The notes under the pieces are model-generated. The model was given only the letters and a program-made list of their open reading frames with translations, was not told the origin of the DNA and made no database searches. The position numbers and the translations under genes are program-made. From Escherichia coli phage Wa28, in the sequence record LC788710.1: a stretch of DNA of 64,000 nt; one strand, given 5' to 3'. Of this stretch, positions 1-60,578 are shown in pieces (position 1 is the first letter of the stretch; every line of letters begins with the position of its first letter).

Positions 1-111
1 GCCAACTAACTATTTCATATTATATAATATACTTATAAATTAAAGAGAAATAATAACTATAAGAAACTATCGGCTAAGTGAGAACCACTATCATTTAACT
101 TATGCACAAAG

Positions 112-208
112 TTATCCACAGCACTTTTTGACTTGACACAATAAGCAACATTTTGGCGACTTATCCACAGACTTATATACAGGTTATCCTACTGTATAAA
201 TATACAGG
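112..208. repeat. Left arm of ~100-bp imperfect inverted repeat: DnaA-box matches TTATCCACA (112-120, 161-169), TTGACTTGACA (128-138), LexA-box-like palindrome CTGTATAAATATACAG (192-207)
   Basis: Read directly; reverse complement of 4202-4309 aligns block by block. Confidence 0.8.
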
Positions 209-456: not shown

Positions 457-1458
457 ATGTCTACTGTAAGAATTGCAGTACCAGCAAACGCCACTATTAT
501 TAATGGTAGTTTGCGCAACCTGCTAGATGGTAGTAGTGCGGCAAGCGTACAACATACCGCTACTATTGTAGAAAAGATTCACGATGAAATTTTAGACAAT
601 AATGATACTCATTATTCAGTTGATGATTTCACGCTATTACTAGACCAGACAAGGGCGCTAGTAATTTTCAACCGTGATTATCACATTTTCCGTAATAGTC
701 GGGGAACTGATATTGATTTTATCATTGTTGGTTATAGTGAGTCTCATAGTGGTTACATTGCGCGATTATATAACGTGCAAGAAAAAGAGCAGGTAACAGC
801 AACAAAAGTAAATAATATCAGACTGGATAGTGTCGGATCGTTATTAAATAGTATCTGGCGTGAATTATCATCCAGTTATAAAGGTGCTGATAGTGACGCA
901 ATCGAAACAACTGGCGTATTGTGTTTTGAACGCGCTACGGGTAACATGTTGATTCCTAATGATTATTTAGAGTATGGGAATGAATCAAACGTTGCAAACG
1001 CTGGATTTACACTTCTCCCGCTTGACAATGTAGCAAAACAGGCTGTACAATCTCAAACTTCAAGCGCAAATGCGCAAACTACTGAAAATAAAGGAAATAT
1101 TATGTCTAAAGTATCTTCTATCGTTGCCGCTAATAAATCCGCCGTTATTAACGCTGCTAAACTGGAAGCGGGTAAAATTGCACTGACTCAAATCACAAAA
1201 GTAGCGGCGAAAAAAGCGCCGTTTATGATTAAAGGGTATATTGATACGCCGATTGGTCGTGTAGTGATCGCTAACCTGCTGAGTGTAGCGGTTGACCAGT
1301 ACGCCCCGACTAACCAGAAAGCGAAAGCGGTAGCAGGCGCGGCAATGGAAGCGGCAATGTTGGAAATGGTACAGAGTTTCAATATTGCTGAAATGATCGA
1401 TGAAATGGTAAAAGGCATTGACATTTCTACCTTTACCCAAAACACCGAAACAGAATAA
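457..1458 (+). CDS. hypothetical protein (333 aa)
   Basis: ORF with GAGGGAG Shine-Dalgarno 8 nt upstream; terminator hairpin follows. Confidence 0.6.
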   Translation: MSTVRIAVPANATIINGSLRNLLDGSSAASVQHTATIVEKIHDEILDNNDTHYSVDDFTLLLDQTRALVIFNRDYHIFRNSRGTDIDFIIVGYSESHSGYIARLYNVQEKEQVTATKVNNIRLDSVGSLLNSIWRELSSSYKGADSDAIETTGVLCFERATGNMLIPNDYLEYGNESNVANAGFTLLPLDNVAKQAVQSQTSSANAQTTENKGNIMSKVSSIVAANKSAVINAAKLEAGKIALTQITKVAAKKAPFMIKGYIDTPIGRVVIANLLSVAVDQYAPTNQKAKAVAGAAMEAAMLEMVQSFNIAEMIDEMVKGIDISTFTQNTETE

Positions 1459-4063: not shown

Positions 4064-4090
4064 GGGGCGCAACTATCTGCCCCCTTTTCT
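4064..4090 (+). terminator. rho-independent terminator (GGGGCGCAACTATCTGCCCC + TTTT)
   Basis: Hairpin plus T run just after stop at 4056. Confidence 0.6.
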
Positions 4091-4201
4091 GGCCTCCTCC
4101 AATTTTGCCCTTATTAAAATACCTCCTCCAAAAATAAACGCGTTAGAATGCGTTACAGAGCGTTTAAAGGCTATATTAGATTATTCTCCTACTGGAATAT
4201 A

Positions 4202-4309
4202 CTGTATATTTATACAGTAGAATAACCTGTTAATAAGTCTGTTGATAACGCCTCAAAATCGCTAGGATTTTGTCAAGTCAAATCATGCTGTTAATAAACC
4301 TGTGGATAA
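4202..4309. repeat. Right arm of inverted repeat: LexA-box-like CTGTATATTTATACAG (4202-4217), DnaA-box variants (4240-4248, 4301-4309), TGTCAAGTCAA (4271-4281)
   Basis: Reverse complement matches 112-208. Confidence 0.8.
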
Positions 4310-4319
4310 CTTAAATAGC

Positions 4320-4500
4320 AGTGTTTCTCACTTCCCTTTCTAAATGCGAATCATTATCATTATGCAACTCATTCGCATTCAATTCTGTAAATGATAACCA
4401 TTCTCATTCCACTTTCTAAACGCGAATCATTATCATTCGCATTCAACTTTTTAAATGAGAATCAATCTCATTATCATTCGCATTTCGGCAGGCAGGGCAT
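4320..4500. repeat. AT-rich block of short palindromic/direct repeats (AATGCGAATCATTATCATTCGCATT, AATGAGAATCAATCTCATT)
   Basis: Read directly. Confidence 0.7.
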
Positions 4501-4522
4501 TTTCATTTTGCCCTGCGCTTTT

Positions 4523-5125
4523 GTGCAAATCCGACATTGCTCCACGGGTGTTACGTGCGGGCGTGTATGTGCGAATCCGACAATTTTTGGTAGTGTGCAA
4601 ATCCGATGGGAAATATTTTTATAGTGTGCGAATCCGACAATGAATTTTCCTAAAAACTCCAGCAATCCGCAACTGCGATGCAATCCAGCTGGATTTACTA
4701 GAGTATGTGCAAATCCGACAAGTGTTAAGGTGTGCGAATCCGATAAGATTTTTGTGATTTCGATTGGAGGGTGTGTGATTGTGTGGGTTTGGGGAGAAGT
4801 TGAGAGAGTGAGAGAAAATAAGGGTAGAAACTGGAGTGGGCAGCATGGGTGGCGTGAAACGCCTGGTTTGCTGCGTTTTTGGGGATAATGCGGGATGTTT
4901 TGGCTAGAATTGAGATTAGGGGAGATAAAGCGAAATTTTATTAGCAAAATGGGGCAAAATCGCTTGACAAGTGAAAATTCCTGTGGCTCTAAAAAACTCA
5001 GGCAAATATGGGCCTTCGGCCCGAAATAATGCTGCTATTTTCAGTGTTCCTAAAAACTTTGGAGACTCCTATCAATGTGCAAATCCGACCATAAATTTCT
5101 AGAAACACAGTGTGCAAATCCGATA
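4523..5125 (+). repeat. Eight same-orientation copies of 15-bp motif TGTGC(A/G)AATCCGA(C/T) at 4523, 4568, 4594, 4626, 4706, 4731, 5076, 5111
   Basis: Read directly; irregular spacing; no coding potential beyond repeat-derived ORFs. Confidence 0.85.
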
Positions 5126-5265
5126 GCAATTTCCAGAAATGTGTTTTGGAAAAATGTCTCCTAGAAATAACCGCCCTCCCTATAACCGCCCTGTATTAAA
5201 CCGCCTATTGCTGGAGTTTCTAGGAACATGAAAACCGCCTGAGTTGGCGAGAGTTTTCCTAGAAA
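5094..5265. repeat. Cluster of palindromic TTCCTAGAAA/TTTCTAGGAA motifs and four AACCGCC repeats
   Basis: Read directly. Confidence 0.7.
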
Positions 5266-5490
5266 CTTAGGAGTCTACTAGAAAGTGTTGTGCTATCCTA
5301 GCAGATGAGCGGCAACAGGTGTATCATCTTGAACATTAATTTATCTATTCAACAGTATTAGTTTTTATATAAGTATAAGATCCCCAGGGGATTGTGAGAG
5401 ATGCTCCACCCCTGGGATACGAATTGCGTGAGATGGTACAAAACTTCTGAAGATTTCCCTAGCCCTCCGACAAGCTACGGGGAAATAGAA

Positions 5491-5530
5491 GTTTCCCATC
5501 CACCATCCGTATCCGGGTGGATCTCTTTAT
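5491..5530 (+). terminator. hairpin (ATCCACC..GGTGGAT) followed by T-rich tract
   Basis: Stem-loop then CTCTTTATTCT on plus strand. Confidence 0.4.
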
Positions 5531-5551
5531 TCTATGTTATTTCATAGAGTT

Positions 5552-5580
5552 ATTATAACATGCAGAAATCATAACGTCAA
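5552..5580 (-). promoter_or_regulatory. sigma70-like promoter (TTGACG-17-TATAAT) firing leftward into the repeat locus
   Basis: Reverse complement gives TTGACGTTATGATTTCTGCATGTTATAAT. Confidence 0.5.
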
Positions 5581-6478: not shown

Positions 6479-7089
6479 TAACGACCTCTAGCCTTATCTG
6501 CATCAATAGCTTCGAATACTTTCGTTAACATTTCTTCAAGCTCACCTTCTTTGCTAGGATTGCTCAAACGAATAGTATATGAGTTCCTAGAAACTCCTGA
6601 GTCTTCTTGTGCTCCGCGATCTTTTGCAAAGCCCATCATTGCAACGCCAGCTTTATTCCACTCGTCTACGCTAGATGCTTCCCCAAATTTATATGATTGC
6701 GTATTGCTTACCACGCCACCACAAGGAACATTGTGCATATCCGACATTAATCTTTTATCGGAATTATTCAGCATTGCGATTGGTCCCGACTGCCACGGAT
6801 CTCGAATAGTCACTGGAGTACTCGGGCGGTTCACTTCAGTCTTCACGAGTTTGTATCCAGCATCGATTAGTGCATTAATCAGATTATCAGCCGGGATACG
6901 AGCCGTGCCAAAGATAGCACGAGCATTCATAAGCTTAGCCTGAAATTCCTTGCAACCTTGAAGATCAGTGTGCAAAAACGACAGTTGCATAGATTTAAAC
7001 TGTACTGTAGCAGTCAGATCTTTAAAGCTGTAATCCCATGTGTCGAGTTCATGATCTGCAACTACTTTAATGGTTTGTTGTGTAAACAT
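6478..7089 (-). CDS. hypothetical protein (203 aa)
   Basis: ORF, start/stop overlap with neighbours. Confidence 0.6.
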   Translation of the reverse strand: MFTQQTIKVVADHELDTWDYSFKDLTATVQFKSMQLSFLHTDLQGCKEFQAKLMNARAIFGTARIPADNLINALIDAGYKLVKTEVNRPSTPVTIRDPWQSGPIAMLNNSDKRLMSDMHNVPCGGVVSNTQSYKFGEASSVDEWNKAGVAMMGFAKDRGAQEDSGVSRNSYTIRLSNPSKEGELEEMLTKVFEAIDADKARGR

Positions 7090-8734: not shown

Positions 8735-9164
8735 TTAAGGCCATATCAGCGGTTTCCAGAAGAGATTCAGTAATCTCACGAGAAACTAGATATTCATCAA
8801 TTGAGTGGCGGCGTTTGCAGGCATAAGCATTAACAATCAGATCTAGAGCACCAAGAACATCATGAATAGTTACTTCTTCATCCTTGTCTAACTCTTCTTT
8901 GGTAATCTCAATTAACTGGCCAACTGCCATTAAAAGCCCAAGAATATCTGCTGTTTCGCCTGCCACCAGCGGATTAGCACATCCTACTGTAAGATCGAAA
9001 GCATGATTGACAATTGACTGCCCATCAACGCTTCCTTCCTCAATCTGCTTCTCCAACTGCTTCATCTGCTCTAGCACTGGATTTTTCTTTTGTGTCATGG
9101 TAAAGATTTCCTGTATCAGTTGGAAGGAATGCCGATTGTGCCTTCGGCGGATGTTGTTTAGCAA
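8715..9164 (-). CDS. hypothetical protein (start probably internal, about 9098)
   Basis: ORF; overlaps next ORF. Confidence 0.45.
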   Translation of the reverse strand: MLNNIRRRHNRHSFQLIQEIFTMTQKKNPVLEQMKQLEKQIEEGSVDGQSIVNHAFDLTVGCANPLVAGETADILGLLMAVGQLIEITKEELDKDEEVTIHDVLGALDLIVNAYACKRRHSIDEYLVSREITESLLETADMALNGKQLH

Positions 9165-9507
9165 TCCAGTTGAGGATCAGTACACGGCTAGGAACGATAT
9201 CGGTATTATACCAGAAATCATGAACCCAATGTCGTGCATTTTCAAACTTACCGAACTTATACGCTTTCTTGAACAGCTCAAAACCAAAACAGTCAGGTGC
9301 AAAATCTACATCACGATAAGGAATTACCTTAGATCCGGTGAGATCTTGAATCGCTGCGTTAATCTCTGTATGCGAGAACTTCGTTTCATGGAAAGTATTA
9401 AAGAAGCGGTAATTAAAACGTCCGTTCGTTTCGACAAACAACTGGATGAATAAATCATTAAATTGGCCATCAAACCAGTAATTCTGTAATCTTTGCAGTG
9501 CTGTCAT
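9040..9507 (-). CDS. hypothetical protein (155 aa)
   Basis: ORF. Confidence 0.5.
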   Translation of the reverse strand: MTALQRLQNYWFDGQFNDLFIQLFVETNGRFNYRFFNTFHETKFSHTEINAAIQDLTGSKVIPYRDVDFAPDCFGFELFKKAYKFGKFENARHWVHDFWYNTDIVPSRVLILNWIAKQHPPKAQSAFLPTDTGNLYHDTKEKSSARADEAVGEAD

Positions 9508-9704
9508 TTACGAACCCCATTTATTGCTGCGATAACGCCTTCATACATGAAAGGAAGAACTTGTGAAATGTGGAAATCTTGGACTGTCCAACCAGCTTCT
9601 TGATACATAATGTTAATGATTGCACAACTTAACATAAAAGCTGGTAGAATTATAAAGTAATCCCACGTTGCTTTCTGCAAGTTAGGGTTATAAAAATTAA
9701 TCAT
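9504..9704 (-). CDS. small membrane protein (66 aa)
   Basis: ORF, hydrophobic. Confidence 0.4.
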   Translation of the reverse strand: MINFYNPNLQKATWDYFIILPAFMLSCAIINIMYQEAGWTVQDFHISQVLPFMYEGVIAAINGVRK

Positions 9705-9804
9705 CTGTTTTTAAGTCTCCGTATTACTTTGGCCTGCTCAACGATTATGAAAGCGGCAACCACTAAACCGAAGATTAGGATTGCCGTAACAGTTGTTAAA
9801 TCAA

Positions 9805-10137
9805 TCAAGGCAGACGCCAAATATAATGGGCTGTCCAAAGTGTTTCTGGTTCATCGTCATGATGCATCACTAGGGACTCTGGAGAATAACTATTAGCCAG
9901 TTCTTTACGAACCATCTCACGTTCTTCGCCAGTTTCAATATTTTTAACAATCACTTTCATATTAAGAGGAGTTAGCTCAGAAAGTGGTCGCCATAAGTCT
10001 TCCAGATCTGTTTTAGTTTTATTCTGGATGGATTGCAAGACTTCTAGTGTCTGAGGATCTACATTAATAAACCCACGTTCAGTAACAAAACCTAGAAACT
10101 CGTCCAGCAGGGTTAATTCACTAAAATTAAGCTTCAT
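9805..10137 (-). CDS. hypothetical protein (110 aa)
   Basis: ORF. Confidence 0.5.
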   Translation of the reverse strand: MKLNFSELTLLDEFLGFVTERGFINVDPQTLEVLQSIQNKTKTDLEDLWRPLSELTPLNMKVIVKNIETGEEREMVRKELANSYSPESLVMHHDDEPETLWTAHYIWRLP

Positions 10138-10372
10138 CTTTCAGAATATCCTCGATCATGTCAGAAGATTGCTGTAGTTCGTCTACAATGCGTTTAACGT
10201 CAGTTTTTGTCACTTTACAGGCCAACATCGTGAACAGCATTGCAACGATGATGATAGGAACTGGCAGAACAAACAGTGCTACTTTAGCAACGTTCTTCGG
10301 GGTCCAGGTATGATACTTAGTAACCAGAACACCAACAATAACCAGATAAAAAGCTAAGATAATTAACATCAT
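10127..10372 (-). CDS. membrane protein (81 aa)
   Basis: ORF, two hydrophobic segments. Confidence 0.45.
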   Translation of the reverse strand: MMLIILAFYLVIVGVLVTKYHTWTPKNVAKVALFVLPVPIIIVAMLFTMLACKVTKTDVKRIVDELQQSSDMIEDILKDEA

Positions 10373-10650
10373 TTCTTAATCTCCGTGATTACCTGAGCGC
10401 GCAGGACTTTAATAGGAAGTTTAGTGTTACCAACAAGAGTTTCAATATTCGTTAGCTTTTCTTTAAGAAGATCTGAGCGTCTTTGTGCTAATTCGATATC
10501 TTCTTCCTGTTCAACGAGACGTTTAACTAGCCCATCATTGGTGAGGCGCATCCTATCCATATTTTTATTAGCATTAATAATGCCAATGATTCCACCAATT
10601 GCTGCTAAAGTCGTGAGAACCAGTAATCCAATTAAAATTTCTGTTATCAT
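10369..10650 (-). CDS. membrane-anchored coiled-coil protein (93 aa)
   Basis: ORF. Confidence 0.45.
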   Translation of the reverse strand: MITEILIGLLVLTTLAAIGGIIGIINANKNMDRMRLTNDGLVKRLVEQEEDIELAQRRSDLLKEKLTNIETLVGNTKLPIKVLRAQVITEIKK

Positions 10651-11054
10651 TTAAATACTCCATTAGCACACCACATGGATGGTGGGACTTCTTCTACATT
10701 TCCATAAAATTTGATCTTAAATAAGACACTACCTTTATTTTGGCAGAAAATCTTTCCTTCCTCTACCATAATTTTTGCTTGATTTGTGTCACCAGATCTT
10801 AAAACATCTATTACTGTAACCCCTGTAAATCTGGAGAATTGTTCATCAGCATATTCACCTTGTTGACGGTGTCTCTGCTCCATTTCCATGGCTGCTTTCT
10901 TTGCCTCTTCCCATTTATCCTTATGCTGGGTTGGGGCTTCCTTAACTTCTACTTTATCACGCTGGTTAAGCATGAAATCGGTAACACCGAGTGTGATAGC
11001 TAGAGAGACTAGGGCATTCAGCCCTAGTACAAGTAAGAATTTTCCATTAGTCAT
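10647..11054 (-). CDS. membrane-anchored protein (135 aa)
   Basis: ORF. Confidence 0.5.
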   Translation of the reverse strand: MTNGKFLLVLGLNALVSLAITLGVTDFMLNQRDKVEVKEAPTQHKDKWEEAKKAAMEMEQRHRQQGEYADEQFSRFTGVTVIDVLRSGDTNQAKIMVEEGKIFCQNKGSVLFKIKFYGNVEEVPPSMWCANGVFK

Positions 11055-12495: not shown

Positions 12496-13086
12496 TCAAA
12501 CATTGATATCTCCCCTCAATACCGCTGCCACATCTTCATCGATTTGGAGTATTTCACCAGTAGTGCAGTTAACCACTTTATCATAGCTTGTGAACTTGCC
12601 AGACACAATATCCTCTAGAGGAATAGGAGTCTTGCTCATCTCAAAAGAGACGTTGATATAACGTGGGTCACGCACAGAATTGGTGTGCACATGTCCGTGA
12701 ATGTTTAGCTTACCACGAAGTTCTGCTTCGTGCAATGGACAATGTGACAGCCAAAACTTCTTGCCACCACCTGTTTGCTTACCTAGAGCCTGAATATCAT
12801 CATAAACGTCTACAAGATCTTTAATACGCAGACCCTGACGTTCAGCATCGTGGTTGCCCATGATTAATTGGTTAGGCACATTGTAGATAACCGACTTCAA
12901 TTTAGCCAACCCTTCACGCCCCACGGCAATATCTCCTAGCAATACAAGTTTTGTACGCTTGCCAATGTGCTTGGACAAAGTATCTAGGATATATTCATCG
13001 TGCTCTTTCCTGTTCTTAAACCACGGACGGAAGCGAAGAGTTCCAGGATGGTCTAGGTGCAAATCCGACCAGAATTTAACTTTCAT
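12496..13086 (-). CDS. calcineurin-like metallophosphoesterase
   Basis: SDLHLD, GDIAVG, GNHD motifs. Confidence 0.7.
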   Translation of the reverse strand: MKVKFWSDLHLDHPGTLRFRPWFKNRKEHDEYILDTLSKHIGKRTKLVLLGDIAVGREGLAKLKSVIYNVPNQLIMGNHDAERQGLRIKDLVDVYDDIQALGKQTGGGKKFWLSHCPLHEAELRGKLNIHGHVHTNSVRDPRYINVSFEMSKTPIPLEDIVSGKFTSYDKVVNCTTGEILQIDEDVAAVLRGDINV

Positions 13087-17721: not shown

Positions 17722-18474
17722 TTATCCAACTAGTGGTTCTAGCTCTAAGTCACAGAAGTGGTACACATCGGTACGAAGTGCATCAAGTCCGTTGAAGGTA
17801 TTCTCAAATTTATGAGAAATATATTTTTCAGGAATACCGCTTTCAGACGGATGATCTGTCTCGATGCGATACTTATTAGTAATACCAGATTCAACCTTAA
17901 TAAGCATGGAATCCATATCTAGAGTATTGGTTTCCATGATTAGTTCTCCCTCATTGGGGAAACGCACATCGGTAACGATTGCGACGTCTGGGTCGTCTTT
18001 ATCGATGGATTGCTCCAGAATTATGAGCCAAATGCGTTCATGCACCAGCTGCCTTCCTAACTCAGTACCTACAAGCTGTAGCATTTTTCTTGGGGAGATA
18101 AATACGCTATACAGCGCATCATCAGCTTGCCCAATTAACTGCTGAGGATCAAGGTATTTTCCTTCAAATATCGGCCAAACGTACGAGAAGTCCTCAAACT
18201 TATCGATACCATACTTAAACCATACGTCTCTAGCTCGCTCCAATTGAGATTGTGTGACTGTAAACCATTGGTCAATCTCTTTTCCCCTGCGCTCTCCCAG
18301 AAACTCTGGAGTTACCCCGAGGATTACGGATGCAAGTTCGTAAACGGGTTTAGCAAAACTGTAACGACGGGATAAACACGTTGGGAACGTGTCATTACAC
18401 CAGTCAATCATTAATTCTGCAACGGTATCTTTTCCCGCACCAGCCTCACCATGTAAACCGACTAATACTGACAT
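17722..18474 (-). CDS. deoxynucleoside monophosphate kinase
   Basis: P-loop GEAGAGKDT close to N-terminus, as in T4 dNMP kinase. Confidence 0.65.
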   Translation of the reverse strand: MSVLVGLHGEAGAGKDTVAELMIDWCNDTFPTCLSRRYSFAKPVYELASVILGVTPEFLGERRGKEIDQWFTVTQSQLERARDVWFKYGIDKFEDFSYVWPIFEGKYLDPQQLIGQADDALYSVFISPRKMLQLVGTELGRQLVHERIWLIILEQSIDKDDPDVAIVTDVRFPNEGELIMETNTLDMDSMLIKVESGITNKYRIETDHPSESGIPEKYISHKFENTFNGLDALRTDVYHFCDLELEPLVG

Positions 18475-36024: not shown

Positions 36025-36059
36025 CAGAAAAGCCCGCGCTCTCGGAGGAAACGCGGGCT
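36025..36059 (-). terminator. rho-independent terminator (GCCCGCG..CGCGGGC)
   Basis: 7-bp GC stem with A run on plus. Confidence 0.7.
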
Positions 36060-57292: not shown

Positions 57293-57788
57293 ATTTATAT
57301 TGAATTGAGAGACATTAGTAAAAATTGATTTTGCTAATTTTTCTTGTTTACAATCCGCAATACGGAACAGTTAGGCTGCCCCATTAAGGGTTGTTTTAAC
57401 TATTACTAGTGTTTATACTGCATTAGTTAATTATCAATTAAGTGATCTGCGTACCCTGAATTCGGAAAGGTAAATCCAAACCGTGCATATTTAGCTCGTT
57501 ATATAGGCAGAGCTTTATATGGGGGTGCGAACGAAAAGAGCAGCGAATGGTGACACGTCCAGTAGCCACCTACCAATAGGATAGTGAGGGCAATCAGAAT
57601 CGGCTTAGCGGCCAATGACCTAGGTTCTGATCTGGATAAGAGTTAAGAGAGCGCAGCACTGAGGTATGATAACTTATTCATACTGCTTGATGATGATTAA
57701 TGTTTGTGTAAATGGTAGTAATAGTTGTTCTATTCTTTTGAATAGTCCTAAAGAAAGATATTCGAATAACCAACATAGGAGTATTGTT

Positions 57789-60578
57789 GTGTTCTCAATC
57801 CTACAAGGTCACGCAGGATTTTCCAGAGATAAAGCTACTGGCATCTGGAAAGAGATCAAAGTGGAAGATTACACCTTTGCAAAGCGATTCTCTAAAGAGC
57901 ATCCAGAAGGTAAACCAGCTTCCATGCCCTTCAAATTTGATGTACTTGAAGAACTTGACCCGCAAAACCTTGCTGAAATGTTACCTATCATGCGTCGTCT
58001 TACCAAAGACCCGCATATTGTAGCTATTCGTGGTAAATGTTTAGCTCCAAAAGATAATGTGCGTCGTACCAGAGGAAACTTTAACGTATCCAATCCTAGT
58101 CATATTATTGCTATGGACGTGGACGGTATTGTAGATACTGGTGGCTATGACAAGTTTAATCTTGTTGGCATGGCACGTCATATTATTAAGATGTTGAATA
58201 GTATTAGTGAGGATATGTTTCCTCTTGATGCAGGGTTTATTGCTCATGCATCGTCTTCGGCTGGCCTAAAACCAGGTATCCGAATGCACTTAATGCTAGA
58301 ATCTAATGTCAAGGTAACGCAGGGACAATTAAAATTCTTATTTACATCCATCAATGACAGTAGTAAGCAAAAGTATGGCTTTGATATTGCTGACTTAGCT
58401 TATTATTCTTCTGTTCAGCTTCACTATTTCGCAGATCCCTTATTTGATGATGGTATAGTCGATCCGTTTAAAGCGGAGAATAAACCACGTCTTGTGTATG
58501 TTAAGGGTTCGAAAGTGAATCTACCCAATAACCTAGTTGACTTTGAAACAACTAGAGGTGAGTTTAAAGAAGAATTCTACTCCTTACTTGACCAAATTAA
58601 AGGCAAGAAGGCTGCATCTGATAAAGTGGAAGAAACCATCAGCGAACTAGAAGAAGCTGAGGATGGGGTGTACCTGCGTATTATTCCAAAACTTTACCAC
58701 AGAGCGTTAGAAGATGGTGTTGACTTTACATGGTTAGAACGTGAGATTAAACCAGCTTTATCTGAATATATTGCAACTAAAGATAATAGTCGTAATATTC
58801 AAGATTACTTTAATAACGGTCGTAAGCAGGCTCTCAAAGCCTTTGTAAATAACTCCAAACGTGAGATTCCACCCAACTTAAAAGGTGTACCATTAAAACG
58901 TCTGGACACAGATTCTCCACCAGAAGTTCCATACCTGAAAATTAATATTGTACCACCAAAAGGACATTTAACATTTGTTAAGGCAAGTCTTGGTACGGGT
59001 AAAACTACAGCAGTAACTAAGTGGCTAGATGCAGGTGTTCTTCCAGGAAACTTTATTGCAATCACAAATACTAGGGCACTTGTATCTTCTAACGCGAAGA
59101 AATTCGGTGCTGGTCAGTATGATAAGTCAGTTGATATGCTGAACTTCAAACGTGGTGCCATTGATCGTATGTCTTCAACTATTCACTCTATCCATAAGTT
59201 CAAGAGCTTTGTGGGTCAGATTGATACGATCTTTATTGATGAATGTGACGCAGTAATGAATGATCTGTTATTCGCTCCGGTTGTTAAAAATCGTCGTGAA
59301 TGTATTCAGGTTCTTCGTGATATCCTTATTACTGCTAAAACTGTTATCTTATCCGATGGTGATATTAGTGCAGAAACGATTGAAGCCTATGGTTCTTTGA
59401 TTGATTTTGATAAACCAGTCGCATTTTATAATCACCACCGTAAAATGCTGGCGAAAGCTCATGCTTATGAATTCCCTGATGAATCCAGTATTTGGGTTGC
59501 ACTTCAAACATCTTTAGAGATGGGGGGGAAATCAATCCTAGTATCTGACTGTGGCCCGGATGAACTGAATGAGAAGGGAATGGCATTACGTCGTAATACT
59601 GGTGCGTTAGTTAAAGAAATTCACTCAAACTCTACGTCTGATGTAGATATCCGACGTATTCTGGATTATACAACTAATGAGCTAATTGATCAACAGATTG
59701 ATTGTTTATTATGTAGTCCATCTGTAACGAGTGGTGTTGACTTTAACTATTTTGATAACGTATTCGTAATCACTAGAACCTCAAACCAAGCGCCAAACAT
59801 GCGTTTTCAAGCAATCAGGCGCGACCGTGGTGCTCAGAACATTTATTATTTTATTGATAAATCTACGAGTGGATTTTCTGCGGGTTCCGAGCAATATAAT
59901 ATTGACGAAGGTTGGATTGAGTTAGCCCAACAACTGTACGCACGTCGTCGTGAGCTGGAATCTAGAAACTATACCAGTACTTTGCGGTATTATCTTCTCG
60001 ATCAAGGTGCAACTATTGATATTTTCAGTGAAAGCTGGGGAACTATCGAAGGTGCAGGCAAAGAGTATACAGAAGAGCGAATCAAAGCTATTTTGCACTC
60101 AACTCCTGAATATTGCGCACCACGTCATGCAGACGCATATGAAGCTAAATTGCTTCTGGTTCGCTATTATCATCTGGATTCTATCAAAGATGTAACAATG
60201 GAACATGTTGAACAGTATATCAAGGATAAACCGAATGATCGAGCTGCATTTTTCCACAAGATGCACGACATGTTCTGGGAAGATATTAAAAAGTGTTCAA
60301 ACGTAACAATCAAACCGTTTATCGAAGCTCTTAAGAATAAGAAGAAGGATTTCTTCCTTAAGACAGGTCAGAGCGCTAACCCAAAATATGCTCGTATGTA
60401 TCTTGGCATGATGGGTATCGGTAAAGATCTGGATACGGAAAAGATTGTGGACTGGTACAGAACTTACTGTAAGATCGAATGTATGCCGATTCCAGTTAAG
60501 TTTATGACAGACGAAGAACGTCAGATGCACGAGGAAGCTCTTGCTGAATTGGGAGCTAGAAATGACAGTGAAGAATAA
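57789..60578 (+). CDS. large Walker A/B NTPase, putative replication origin-binding / SF2 helicase-like protein
   Basis: GTGKTT Walker A, IFIDECD Walker B; GTG start with TAGGAG SD preferred over track ATG at 57666 (low-complexity N-term). Confidence 0.55.
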   Translation: MFSILQGHAGFSRDKATGIWKEIKVEDYTFAKRFSKEHPEGKPASMPFKFDVLEELDPQNLAEMLPIMRRLTKDPHIVAIRGKCLAPKDNVRRTRGNFNVSNPSHIIAMDVDGIVDTGGYDKFNLVGMARHIIKMLNSISEDMFPLDAGFIAHASSSAGLKPGIRMHLMLESNVKVTQGQLKFLFTSINDSSKQKYGFDIADLAYYSSVQLHYFADPLFDDGIVDPFKAENKPRLVYVKGSKVNLPNNLVDFETTRGEFKEEFYSLLDQIKGKKAASDKVEETISELEEAEDGVYLRIIPKLYHRALEDGVDFTWLEREIKPALSEYIATKDNSRNIQDYFNNGRKQALKAFVNNSKREIPPNLKGVPLKRLDTDSPPEVPYLKINIVPPKGHLTFVKASLGTGKTTAVTKWLDAGVLPGNFIAITNTRALVSSNAKKFGAGQYDKSVDMLNFKRGAIDRMSSTIHSIHKFKSFVGQIDTIFIDECDAVMNDLLFAPVVKNRRECIQVLRDILITAKTVILSDGDISAETIEAYGSLIDFDKPVAFYNHHRKMLAKAHAYEFPDESSIWVALQTSLEMGGKSILVSDCGPDELNEKGMALRRNTGALVKEIHSNSTSDVDIRRILDYTTNELIDQQIDCLLCSPSVTSGVDFNYFDNVFVITRTSNQAPNMRFQAIRRDRGAQNIYYFIDKSTSGFSAGSEQYNIDEGWIELAQQLYARRRELESRNYTSTLRYYLLDQGATIDIFSESWGTIEGAGKEYTEERIKAILHSTPEYCAPRHADAYEAKLLLVRYYHLDSIKDVTMEHVEQYIKDKPNDRAAFFHKMHDMFWEDIKKCSNVTIKPFIEALKNKKKDFFLKTGQSANPKYARMYLGMMGIGKDLDTEKIVDWYRTYCKIECMPIPVKFMTDEERQMHEEALAELGARNDSEE

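What the first reader, a model, noticed from the sequence alone, without database searches (positions are those of the whole stretch)
4320..5300. Gene-free repeat locus: eight copies of TGTGCRAATCCGAY plus nested palindromes; candidate injection-stop / protein-loading site
About 1 kb has no credible ORF yet carries eight same-orientation 15-mers, AT-rich palindromic repeats (4320-4500), palindromic TTCCTAGAAA motifs and four AACCGCC repeats. It sits between the pre-early-like cassette and the first leftward early gene. T5-type phages pause DNA transfer at a defined site near the end of the terminal repeat; this architecture fits a multi-site protein-binding platform for that pause, or alternatively an origin or partition site.
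Basis: partly seen in the sequence, partly recalled or inferred. Interest (0 to 1): 0.8.

Follow-up and report, generated by a model that had tools for sequence, protein, structure and literature searches.

The report
T5-type injection-stop repeat region
This gene-free repeat cluster is this phage's copy of the long-known "injection stop signal" region of phage T5, so it is a rediscovery; it also contains the exact spot where the phage genome's right end is cut.

Summary
Window 4320-5300 has no conserved ORF. It carries eight exact, same-strand copies of TGTGCRAATCCGAY (0.08 expected), AT-rich nested palindromes, CTAG-centred palindromes and four AACCGCC.

It is not new. The window is a T5-like phage (Demerecviridae, closest to Epseptimavirus). 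The locus aligns base-for-base with the T5 feature annotated "injection stop signal (iss)". Davison calls it "Repeat Region 3" and the 14-mer "DRD", with nine copies in T5.

- Paired DnaA boxes lie just left of the range (4228-4309), with an inverted partner at 76-207.
- A T5 nick consensus sits on the minus strand at 4512-4519, directly before copy 1.
- The terminal repeat ends inside the locus at 4989|4990, after TTGACA-N13-GTGGCTC. Copies 7-8, the palindromes and AACCGCC are therefore unique DNA.
- The same element order and the core GTGCRAAWCCGAY persist in Klebsiella, Serratia, Vibrio and metagenomic relatives.

No function has been demonstrated. I favour a polar protein-binding platform for the pause and restart of DNA transfer. 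A role in terminase packaging initiation is a serious rival.

Novelty: already known. Interest: low.

The parts
76..207 (.). Distal partner of the DnaA-box inverted repeat (IRC-spacer-IRD in Davison's nomenclature). It carries consensus DnaA boxes at 100, 112 and 161.
   Evidence: Inverted repeats 76-142/4267-4333 (67 nt, 78%) and 150-207/4202-4259 (58 nt, 86%). DnaA boxes. Described for T5.
4064..4083 (+). Terminator-like hairpin that closes the rightward pre-early operon.
   Evidence: It aligns with the terminator annotated in T5 at 9275-9296.
4200..4333 (.). Palindrome TACTGTATATTTATACAGTA followed by two pairs of DnaA-type boxes (4228 and 4240; 4289 and 4301). The boxes of each pair are 3 bp apart and all read TTATNNACA on the minus strand. 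This is IRD'-spacer-IRC'.
   Evidence: (family D7). Conservation is 0.89-0.95 across 11 relatives. The element is kept in Klebsiella, Serratia, Vibrio and metagenomic lineages.
4322..4490 (.). AT-rich nested direct and inverted repeats (the DRE repeats of T5).
   Evidence: In other genera the sequence is replaced but the AT-rich repeated character is kept.
4492..4516 (.). 7-bp G+C hairpin or palindrome (GCAGGGC...GCCCTGC) overlapping the nick motif.
   Evidence: Read from the sequence. Paired in the DNA fold. The aligned T5 sequence is a near-perfect palindrome.
4512..4519 (-). Match to the T5 major-nick consensus R/GCGCRGG, predicting a nick between 4519 and 4518 on the minus strand. It is homologous to the T5 '7.9%' single-chain interruption.
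   Evidence: The T5 feature at 9748/9749 maps to window 4518/4519. Consensus taken from PMC3517423. Site found. A GCGC motif sits directly before copy 1 in Kp127, Slocum and Chazly21.
4522..4744 (+). DRD copies 1-6 (TGTGCRAATCCGAY), inside the terminal repeat.
   Evidence: Conservation is 0.93-0.99 at most copies against 0.59-0.84 in the spacers. Related genomes have 5-7 inner copies.
4760..4930 (+). Strongly G-skewed, sequence-variable tract (G 42%, C 7%).
   Evidence: Conservation falls to 0.48-0.80. A G-rich tract occupies the same place in Klebsiella, Serratia, Vibrio and metagenomic relatives.
4935..5045 (.). Near-invariant block holding TTGACA (4964-4969), GTGGCTC (4983-4989), the inferred right end of the terminal repeat and of the packaged genome (4989|4990), and hairpin GGGCCTTCGGCCC (5010-5022).
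   Evidence: Conservation 0.92-0.99. The annotated repeat ends of T5, Sw2 and SIY1lw map to one alignment column. Those of phiR201, Spc35 and EscoHU1 show the same GTGGCTC| context. Six IMG/VR right-repeat copies end exactly at GTGGCTC. In Kp127 the hairpin is replaced by a different one (CACGGTG...CACCGTG).
5076..5124 (+). DRD copies 7-8, outside the terminal repeat.
   Evidence: Relatives have 2-5 outer copies.
5092..5284 (.). CTAG-centred palindromes and inverted pairs, with four AACCGCC repeats (5169-5239), in unique DNA.
   Evidence: AACCGCC(C) is kept in Kp127 and Slocum. A related ACCGCC motif lies about 35 nt inside the left genome end of T5, Spc35 and EscoHU1.
5285..5335 (.). Conserved block of unknown role at the right edge of the repeat region.
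   Evidence: Conservation 0.88-0.93.

Best explanation
This is the phage's copy of T5 'Repeat Region 3', the non-coding region that holds the presumed injection stop signal and straddles the right boundary of the long terminal repeat.

I read it as three modules.

1. Left module, 4200-4744, inside the repeat. It contains paired DnaA boxes (with an inverted partner 4 kb upstream), AT-rich repeats, a nick site, and six same-orientation 14-mers.
2. Central invariant block, 4935-5045. Terminase cuts here after TTGACA-N13-GTGGCTC to make the genome's right end.
3. Right module, 5076-5300, in unique DNA. It contains two more 14-mers, CTAG palindromes and AACCGCC repeats.

Proposed mechanism. DNA enters the cell left end first. 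Once roughly the whole terminal repeat is inside, the DnaA-box pairs have just emerged into the cytoplasm. A factor already present in the cell captures them; Davison proposes membrane-bound DnaA. Transfer stalls. The 14-mer array is the next DNA in the channel. It acts as a polar multi-site landing pad for a phage protein made during the pause, most plausibly the DNA-binding dimer A2 together with A1. That protein re-licenses or pulls in the rest of the genome.

Shown here: homology, anatomy, family-wide conservation and the position of the repeat end.

Inferred: every functional step.

My estimates:
- the 14-mers are protein-binding sites: about 0.85
- they act in the pause or restart of transfer: about 0.45
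- A2 is the binding protein: about 0.3
For: Homology and annotation:
- Base-level alignment to T5 9140-10950 with 80% mean column identity.
- T5 annotates 9140..10149 as iss, with the 7.9% nick at 9748/9749 and the repeat end at 10219.
- Davison describes the same elements: IRD'-spacer-IRC' with DnaA boxes, the DRE repeats and nine DRD copies.
- The sheared first-step DNA end, about 9618, falls in the repeats just right of the DnaA boxes.

Conservation:
- The non-coding elements score 0.9-0.99 while the spacers and the G-rich tract drift.
- Element order, orientation and the 13-nt core survive in Sugarlandvirus, Serratia phage Slocum (A2 50% identical), Vibrio phage Chazly21 (A2 44% identical) and a metagenomic lineage, even though spacing and the AT-rich repeats change.
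- In IMG/VR, two 13-nt cores (GTGCRAATCCGAY) 8-38 nt apart occur only in 34 contigs: 31 of 104-123 kb (T5-like genome size) and 3 metagenome contigs of 47-96 kb.

Against: - No experiment in any paper I could read maps the stop signal to these elements. Its 'exact position is not determined'.
- Two to five 14-mers always lie outside the terminal repeat, and the array brackets the terminase cut site. A pure stop signal does not need this arrangement.
- In vitro, T5 ejects its whole genome through FhuA alone, so the DNA by itself does not stop.
- A protein bound on the cytoplasmic side would be expected to ratchet DNA in rather than block it (my inference).
- A2 has no recognisable domain or solved relative that would indicate sequence specificity.
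Confidence: 0.55

Rival explanations
1. Packaging signal. The 14-mer array is the recognition (pac/cosB-like) array for the small terminase subunit or a packaging accessory protein. It positions terminase to cut at GTGGCTC| and start packaging leftward into the terminal repeat. The overlap with the injection pause region would then be incidental, or the array would be used in both directions.
For: - The repeat end, which is also the genome's right end, lies between the inner and outer 14-mer groups in every lineage where it can be placed.
- The block around the cut is the most conserved part of the locus.
- The left end enters cells first. By the usual last-in-first-out rule it is packaged last, so packaging should start at this boundary (inference).
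- Arrays are strictly one-orientation with flexible spacing, ranging from abutting 15-16-bp units to 25-81-bp gaps. This is typical of recruitment sites.
- From my own knowledge, not tested here: lambda cosB R sites and the P1 pac hexamers flank or adjoin cut sites, and T7 has short-repeat arrays next to its terminal repeat.
- The left repeat boundary has its own conserved motif and no 14-mers, as expected if there is only one initiation site per genome.
Against: - No terminase-binding data exist.
- The last inner copy is 245 bp from the cut, which is far for a cosB-like site.
- This reading does not explain the paired DnaA boxes, their partner 4 kb away, or the coincidence with the first-step DNA end.
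Confidence: 0.28
2. Iteron-type replication origin. DnaA boxes open the adjacent AT-rich repeats, and the 14-mers are iterons for a phage initiator, for example the 970-aa helicase at 57666..60578 that T5 annotates as 'replication origin binding'.
For: - The order DnaA boxes, then AT-rich repeats, then same-orientation direct repeats is that of plasmid iteron origins. It is clearest in the metagenomic lineage, which has seven abutting units.
- The window encodes a helicase with a marginal Herpes_ori_bp match (21.9 bits against a cutoff of 20). Its T5 homologue, T5.108, is annotated with Myb/SANT and helicase domains.
Against: - The Pfam match covers only the helicase core, not an origin-recognition domain.
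- Cumulative GC skew peaks here and bottoms near window 51 kb, although this is confounded by transcription direction.
- Electron-microscopy studies cited by Davison place T5 origins near the genome centre.
- No 14-mer cluster exists elsewhere in the window.
- Spacing is irregular in most lineages.
Confidence: 0.08
3. Transcriptional buffer or other role. The locus would mainly be a set of terminators, structural DNA or recombination sites separating convergent pre-early and early transcription. The repeats might be relics of slippage or a site for recombination between the two terminal repeats.
For: - Convergent transcription units meet here.
- Terminator-like hairpins are present.
- Davison proposes cleavage or recombination at palindromes to the right of the stop.
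Against: Exact conservation of a 13-14-nt asymmetric motif, in a fixed orientation, across subfamilies with different hosts is not what relic repeats or terminators show.
Confidence: 0.05

Closest known systems
Bacteriophage T5 injection stop signal region / 'Repeat Region 3' (NC_005859 misc_feature 9140..10149; Davison 2020, bioRxiv 10.1101/866236, which cites Heusterspreute 1987 and Wang 2005)
   Same: Homologous sequence in the same position. It has the same elements in the same order: DnaA-box inverted repeat with a distal partner, DRE repeats, the 7.9% nick site, the DRD 14-mers, the repeat end, and the palindromes and AACCGCC repeats beyond it.
   Different: Eight DRD copies here against nine in the T5 region. 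There are small indels in the DRE repeats. The G-rich tract differs in sequence. There is no architectural difference.
Terminase recognition sites with repeated elements (lambda cosB R sites, P1 pac hexamers, T7 short-repeat arrays beside the terminal repeat). Recalled from my own knowledge, not tested here.
   Same: Arrays of short repeats next to, or bracketing, the site where the genome end is cut. The function is polar.
   Different: No sequence similarity and no binding data. The distances to the cut are larger (86-245 bp). The T5-type cut makes a 10-kb direct repeat rather than cohesive ends.
Iteron-type plasmid and phage origins (pSC101, P1 oriR, R6K, lambda ori). Recalled from my own knowledge.
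   Same: DnaA boxes, an AT-rich segment and same-orientation direct repeats, in that order.
   Different: There is no adjacent initiator gene. Spacing is irregular in most lineages. The unit is 13-14 bp rather than 17-22 bp. T5 origins have been mapped elsewhere.
E. coli oriC DnaA-box arrays
   Same: Consensus TTATCCACA boxes in closely spaced pairs, next to AT-rich DNA.
   Different: Only four boxes here plus three or four in the distal partner. The 14-mers resemble a DnaA box at 8 of 9 positions, but that resemblance is not kept in the Vibrio and metagenomic lineages.

Membership tests
T5-type Repeat Region 3 / iss region | Non-coding region between the rightward pre-early operon and the first leftward early gene, at the right end of the long terminal repeat | tested here: met
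   ORF map and alignment to annotated T5, Sw2 and SIY1lw. The repeat end maps to 4989|4990.
T5-type Repeat Region 3 / iss region | Sequence homology to T5 9140-10409 | tested here: met
   Four-way alignment with 80% mean column identity. 451 phage records matched at megablast level, 231 of them over at least 80% of the query.
T5-type Repeat Region 3 / iss region | IRD'-spacer-IRC' with DnaA-type boxes in pairs 3 bp apart, plus an inverted partner several kb to the left | tested here: met
   Boxes at 4228/4240 and 4289/4301. Partner at 76-207, carrying boxes at 100, 112 and 161.
T5-type Repeat Region 3 / iss region | AT-rich DRE repeats followed by a series of DRD direct repeats | tested here: met
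T5-type Repeat Region 3 / iss region | DNA transfer actually pauses here (first-step DNA end) | not testable with these tools
   This needs infection, shearing and end-mapping. Even for T5 the position is only approximate.
Terminase recognition / cut site of a long-direct-terminal-repeat phage | A physical genome end maps within the locus | tested here: met
   Met by homology only. Six of eight annotated records share the GTGGCTC| boundary, and six IMG/VR contigs end there. This genome's own termini are not in the window.
Terminase recognition / cut site of a long-direct-terminal-repeat phage | Terminase subunit binds the repeated elements | not testable with these tools
   No binding data were found in the literature I searched.
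Iteron-type replication origin | DnaA boxes, an AT-rich unwinding region and direct-repeat iterons | tested here: met
   The anatomy fits.
Iteron-type replication origin | Replication initiates here, or compositional skew switches as at an origin | tested here: not met
   Cumulative GC skew is at a maximum here and at a minimum near 51 kb. Published EM mapping puts origins near the genome centre. Skew is confounded by transcription direction, so this is weak evidence.
Iteron-type replication origin | A cognate initiator with a sequence-specific domain that matches the iterons | tested here: inconclusive
   The 970-aa helicase matches Herpes_ori_bp only over the helicase core. The T5 homologue is annotated with a Myb/SANT domain. 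No link to the 14-mer could be made.
Partition (parS-type) site | Centromere repeats with adjacent parA/parB-type genes | not tested
   I did not search for par genes. None appears in the annotated genes flanking the locus in T5, Sw2 or SIY1lw.

The most novel reading that the evidence does not exclude
The 14-mer array may not be the stop signal itself. It could be a polar 'portal-passage' array read in both directions. During assembly it would recruit terminase to cut at GTGGCTC| and start packaging leftward. During infection the same array, now the DNA sitting in the tail and channel at the pause, would be the loading site for the A1/A2 restart machinery. The field's 'iss' annotation would then merge a packaging signal with the true stop determinant, the DnaA-box inverted repeat.
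Probability: 0.2. Interest if true: 0.55.

Novelty: already known. Interest (0 to 1): 0.22.

Why it matters
How T5 stops after injecting 8% of its DNA, and how A1/A2 restart the transfer, has been open for about 60 years. This locus is the accepted candidate site.

The finding itself adds nothing to what the T5 record and Davison's comparisons already contain.

This check adds a base-level parts list:
- the exact repeat end, inside a conserved bipartite motif that sits between the two groups of 14-mers
- a nick consensus fixed directly before copy 1
- a minimal core, GTGCRAAWCCGAY, kept as far as Vibrio phages

This gives clean targets for deletion, inversion and pull-down experiments. It also flags that any phenotype must be separated from a packaging defect.

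Tried and rejected
- **14-mer as a degenerate DnaA box.** TGTGCAAAT matches the box at 8 of 9 positions, and the variant TGTGCAAAA seen in relatives is a perfect box. I downgraded this because the Vibrio and metagenomic lineages keep GTGCAAAWCCGAY but lose the leading T, and because five further conserved bases lie outside the box.
- **Link to herpesvirus UL9 boxes.** The G-variant shares TTCGCAC with the UL9 box (recalled from memory). The window helicase matches Herpes_ori_bp only marginally and only over the helicase core. Rejected as evidence.
- **Extra exact core at 13057.** It lies at the 5' end of a minus-strand gene and encodes W-S-D-L-H-L, a phosphoesterase-type motif, so it is a coding coincidence. 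The 1-mismatch copy at 6732 (exact in T5) is also inside a gene, and I did not count it.
- **TTGACA at 4964 as a promoter.** There is no acceptable -10 element, and the promoter scan did not call it.
- **Known RNA families.** Rfam returned only two chance-level hits.
- **Local ORFs.** No Pfam or PHROGs family, and no conservation of any frame.
- **A2 protein.** No Pfam domain and no solved relative.
- **The search for related loci with the first early gene.** It returned only one locus. A DNA pattern scan worked instead.
- **RNAalifold on nine versions of the neighbouring long hairpin.** It gave no consensus because the sequences do not align.
- **Similarity between the left and right repeat boundaries.** Nothing significant was found.
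- **Davison's 2015 review.** It is not held in the library.
- **Full-text search for the motif string.** It found nothing relevant.

Full report
**Observation**

- TGTGCRAATCCGAY occurs exactly eight times, always on the + strand, at 4522, 4568, 4594, 4625, 4706, 4731, 5076 and 5111. With up to one mismatch the 64-kb window has 10 matches against 0.08 expected, and none of 100 shuffles reaches 10.
- Window 4322-4490 is AT-rich (35% GC). It is built from nested direct and inverted repeats and folds far better than shuffles as single-stranded DNA (z = -6.8).
- CTAG-centred palindromes lie at 5096, 5217 and 5256. Four AACCGCC lie at 5169-5239.
- No ORF is credible. In 11 aligned relatives the stop-free stretches change strand, frame and position, and most indels are not multiples of three. 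The three longest local ORFs, plus a 44-aa ORF just right of the range, hit nothing in Pfam or PHROGs.

**Identity**

The window is a T5-like phage. The locus matches 451 phage records at megablast level. The best matches are Escherichia phage Shin27 (93.5%), Citrobacter phage YZU-L1 and Salmonella phage S132. The close relatives whose taxonomy I checked (Sw2, SIY1lw) are Epseptimavirus.

The locus aligns along its full length with T5 itself at 80% mean column identity. In the T5 reference record the aligned stretch carries three annotations:
- 'injection stop signal (iss)' at 9140..10149
- a 'major DNA single-chain interruption' at 9748/9749
- the end of the left terminal repeat at 10219

Davison's 25-phage comparison names the same stretch 'Repeat Region 3'. 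It lists the inverted repeat IRD'-spacer-IRC' with DnaA boxes, the 66-bp DRE repeats, nine DRD direct repeats, several palindromes and the DRA repeats. It also notes that the region overruns the repeat by 270 bp.

[quoted passage not shown] The finding is therefore a rediscovery of a known, annotated and reviewed feature.

1. *DnaA boxes.* The element the literature favours lies just left of the stated range. There are two pairs of DnaA-type boxes, at 4228/4240 and 4289/4301. The boxes of each pair are 3 bp apart and all have the same orientation. An inverted partner lies at 76-207 and carries three consensus boxes.
2. *Nick site.* The T5 nick maps to window 4518/4519. The minus strand there reads A/GCGCAGG, which matches the published T5 major-nick consensus R/GCGCRGG. 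It sits 3 nt before copy 1.
3. *The repeat ends inside the locus.*
   - The annotated repeat ends of T5, Sw2 (determined by PhageTerm) and SIY1lw fall in one alignment column, window 4989|4990.
   - phiR201, Spc35 and EscoHU1 have the same context...TTGACA-N13-GTGGCTC|.
   - Two records, Kenya-K16 and chee130_1, disagree and are probably imprecise.
   - In IMG/VR genomes that contain both repeat copies, six right-hand copies end exactly at GTGGCTC.
   - Copies 1-6 are therefore in the repeat. Copies 7-8, the palindromes and AACCGCC are unique DNA.
   - The 110 bp around the cut is the most conserved part of the locus, at 0.92-0.99.
4. *G-skewed tract.* A tract with 42% G and 7% C at 4760-4930 separates the inner array from the cut.

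**Comparative anatomy**

Across the family the order of elements is constant:
1. palindrome TGTATA..TATACA
2. paired DnaA boxes
3. AT-rich repeats
4. GCGC nick motif
5. same-orientation 14-mer array
6. G-rich tract
7. repeat end
8. further 14-mers or lineage-specific repeats

I saw this order in four further lineages:
- Klebsiella Sugarlandvirus, with 4 inner and 6 outer copies
- Serratia phage Slocum, with A2 50% identical and 4 inner plus 2 outer copies around its PhageTerm-determined repeat end
- Vibrio phage Chazly21, with A2 44% identical
- a metagenomic lineage in which seven units abut at a 15-16-bp period

The AT-rich repeats change sequence entirely between genera, and the spacing of the 14-mers is free. 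What stays fixed is the orientation and the core GTGCRAAWCCGAY.

In 2.9 million IMG/VR contigs, two 13-nt cores (GTGCRAATCCGAY) 8-38 nt apart occur in only 34 contigs. Thirty-one are of T5-like genome size (104-123 kb) and three are partial metagenomic contigs.

This pattern is that of a protein-binding site used in a polar process. It is not that of a structural repeat or a slippage relic.

**Mechanism**

Nothing functional is shown here or, as far as I could read, anywhere else. The published arguments are positional. Sheared first-step DNA is about 7.9% of the genome, which puts its end in the repeats just right of the DnaA boxes.

Davison proposes that membrane-bound DnaA captures the boxes and that A1/A2 then cut the DNA free. 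[quoted passage not shown] A2 is a DNA-binding dimer with no assigned target.

I commit to the following as most likely (confidence about 0.55 for the locus as a whole):
- The left module is the pause and restart platform.
- The DnaA-box inverted repeat is the capture element.
- The 14-mers are an oriented landing pad for a phage protein made during the pause.
- The invariant central block is the terminase cut site.

The main rival (about 0.28) is that the 14-mers are a packaging-initiation array.
- They bracket the cut site in every lineage.
- The left repeat boundary has its own conserved motif and no 14-mers.
- The left end enters cells first. By the usual last-in-first-out rule, packaging should therefore begin at this right boundary.

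An iteron-origin reading fits the anatomy. It is disfavoured by GC skew, by the published origin mapping, and by the lack of any link to the window's 'origin-binding' helicase beyond a marginal helicase-core match.

**Leads that failed**

Several tempting leads did not hold up. These were the DnaA-box and UL9-box resemblances of the 14-mer, an extra exact core at 13057, TTGACA as a promoter, Rfam, and the local ORFs. The reasons are given under 'tried and rejected'.

**Seen in passing**

Directly right of the locus there is a strong leftward extended -10 promoter, TTGACG-N15-TGTTATAAT, running from 5580 to 5552. It follows the stop codon of the first early gene (5588) and is kept in T5, Epseptimavirus and Sugarlandvirus.

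Downstream of it every lineage has a 110-135-nt extended hairpin. The sequence falls into several unrelated types, but each folds well:
- z = -4.5 for the window by dinucleotide shuffles
- z = -2.5 to -6.2 in relatives by mononucleotide shuffles
- 21 distinct versions were found

A consensus fold could not be computed because the types do not align. This may be more novel than the finding itself.

**Verdict**

Novelty: already known. Interest: low (0.22).

Noticed in passing
window 5370-5580 (minus strand): A strong leftward extended -10 promoter (TTGACG-N15-TGTTATAAT, 5580 to 5552) sits right after the first early gene's stop codon. It is conserved in T5, Epseptimavirus and Klebsiella relatives. 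Downstream lies a 110-135-nt extended hairpin whose sequence falls into several unalignable types, yet each folds well (window z = -4.5; relatives -2.5 to -6.2). A small G/C hairpin and an AT-rich run follow. It could be a non-coding RNA, an RNase III substrate or an oversized terminator. There is no Rfam match.
   Followed up: partly
window 18286-18293 and 36033-36040 (minus strand): These are the only other matches in the window to the T5 major-nick consensus R/GCGCRGG. Both are on the minus strand, with none on the plus strand. Their positions roughly correspond to the T5 18.5% and 32.6% nicks (percentages recalled from memory). Each is next to a hairpin-forming sequence.
   Followed up: partly
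window 76-207: Inverted partner (IRC-spacer-IRD) of the DnaA-box element at 4202-4333. It lies 4 kb to the left, upstream of the DUF7566 gene (457..1458), and carries three consensus DnaA boxes.
   Followed up: yes
window 4760-4930: A strongly strand-asymmetric G-rich tract (G 42%, C 7%) with GGGG runs, just before the repeat end. Its sequence is variable, but a G-rich tract is kept at this position in all lineages examined. Its function is unknown.
   Followed up: partly
window 6732-6745 and 13056-13069: Two isolated + strand copies of the 14-mer core lie inside minus-strand genes. The copy at 13057 is exact and encodes W-S-D-L-H-L at the start of a 196-aa ORF, so it is a likely coding coincidence. 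The copy at 6732 has one mismatch here but is exact in T5, within T5.019.
   Followed up: partly
window 57666-60578: A 970-aa protein homologous to T5.108, which T5 annotates as 'replication origin binding'. Its Herpes_ori_bp match is marginal (21.9 bits against a cutoff of 20) and covers only the helicase core, so the product name overstates what is known.
   Followed up: partly
L001 6669-7134, L004 2488-2694, L011 2096-3280 (public records of relatives): Several GenBank records annotate small 'hypothetical proteins' across this non-coding repeat region (for example Sw2_016-018 and phiR201 g010.3). None is conserved in frame between relatives, so they look like over-annotation.
   Followed up: partly
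L007 1656 (Kenya-K16) and L008 2130 (chee130_1): These two records place the terminal-repeat end 210-680 bp left of the conserved GTGGCTC| boundary that six other records and six IMG/VR contig ends share. Their repeat annotations are probably imprecise.
   Followed up: no
L048 5101-5220 and L066 (metagenomic contigs IMGVR_UViG_3300043120_000090 and 3300036546_000103): A divergent T5-like lineage in which seven 14-mer units abut head to tail at a 15-16-bp period, after DnaA-box pairs and a different AT-rich repeat. It lacks the GTGGCTC motif and instead has its own downstream tandem repeats (TAGAGTAGTCTATTTTT, about seven copies).
   Followed up: no
L013 1-60, L068, L069 (left genome ends of T5, EscoHU1, Spc35): The left boundary of the terminal repeat has its own conserved motif (GATTACACATG...GGYGTG|YCCA). 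An ACCGCC motif lies about 35 nt inside the left end, echoing the AACCGCC repeats 180-250 nt to the right of the right boundary.
   Followed up: partly
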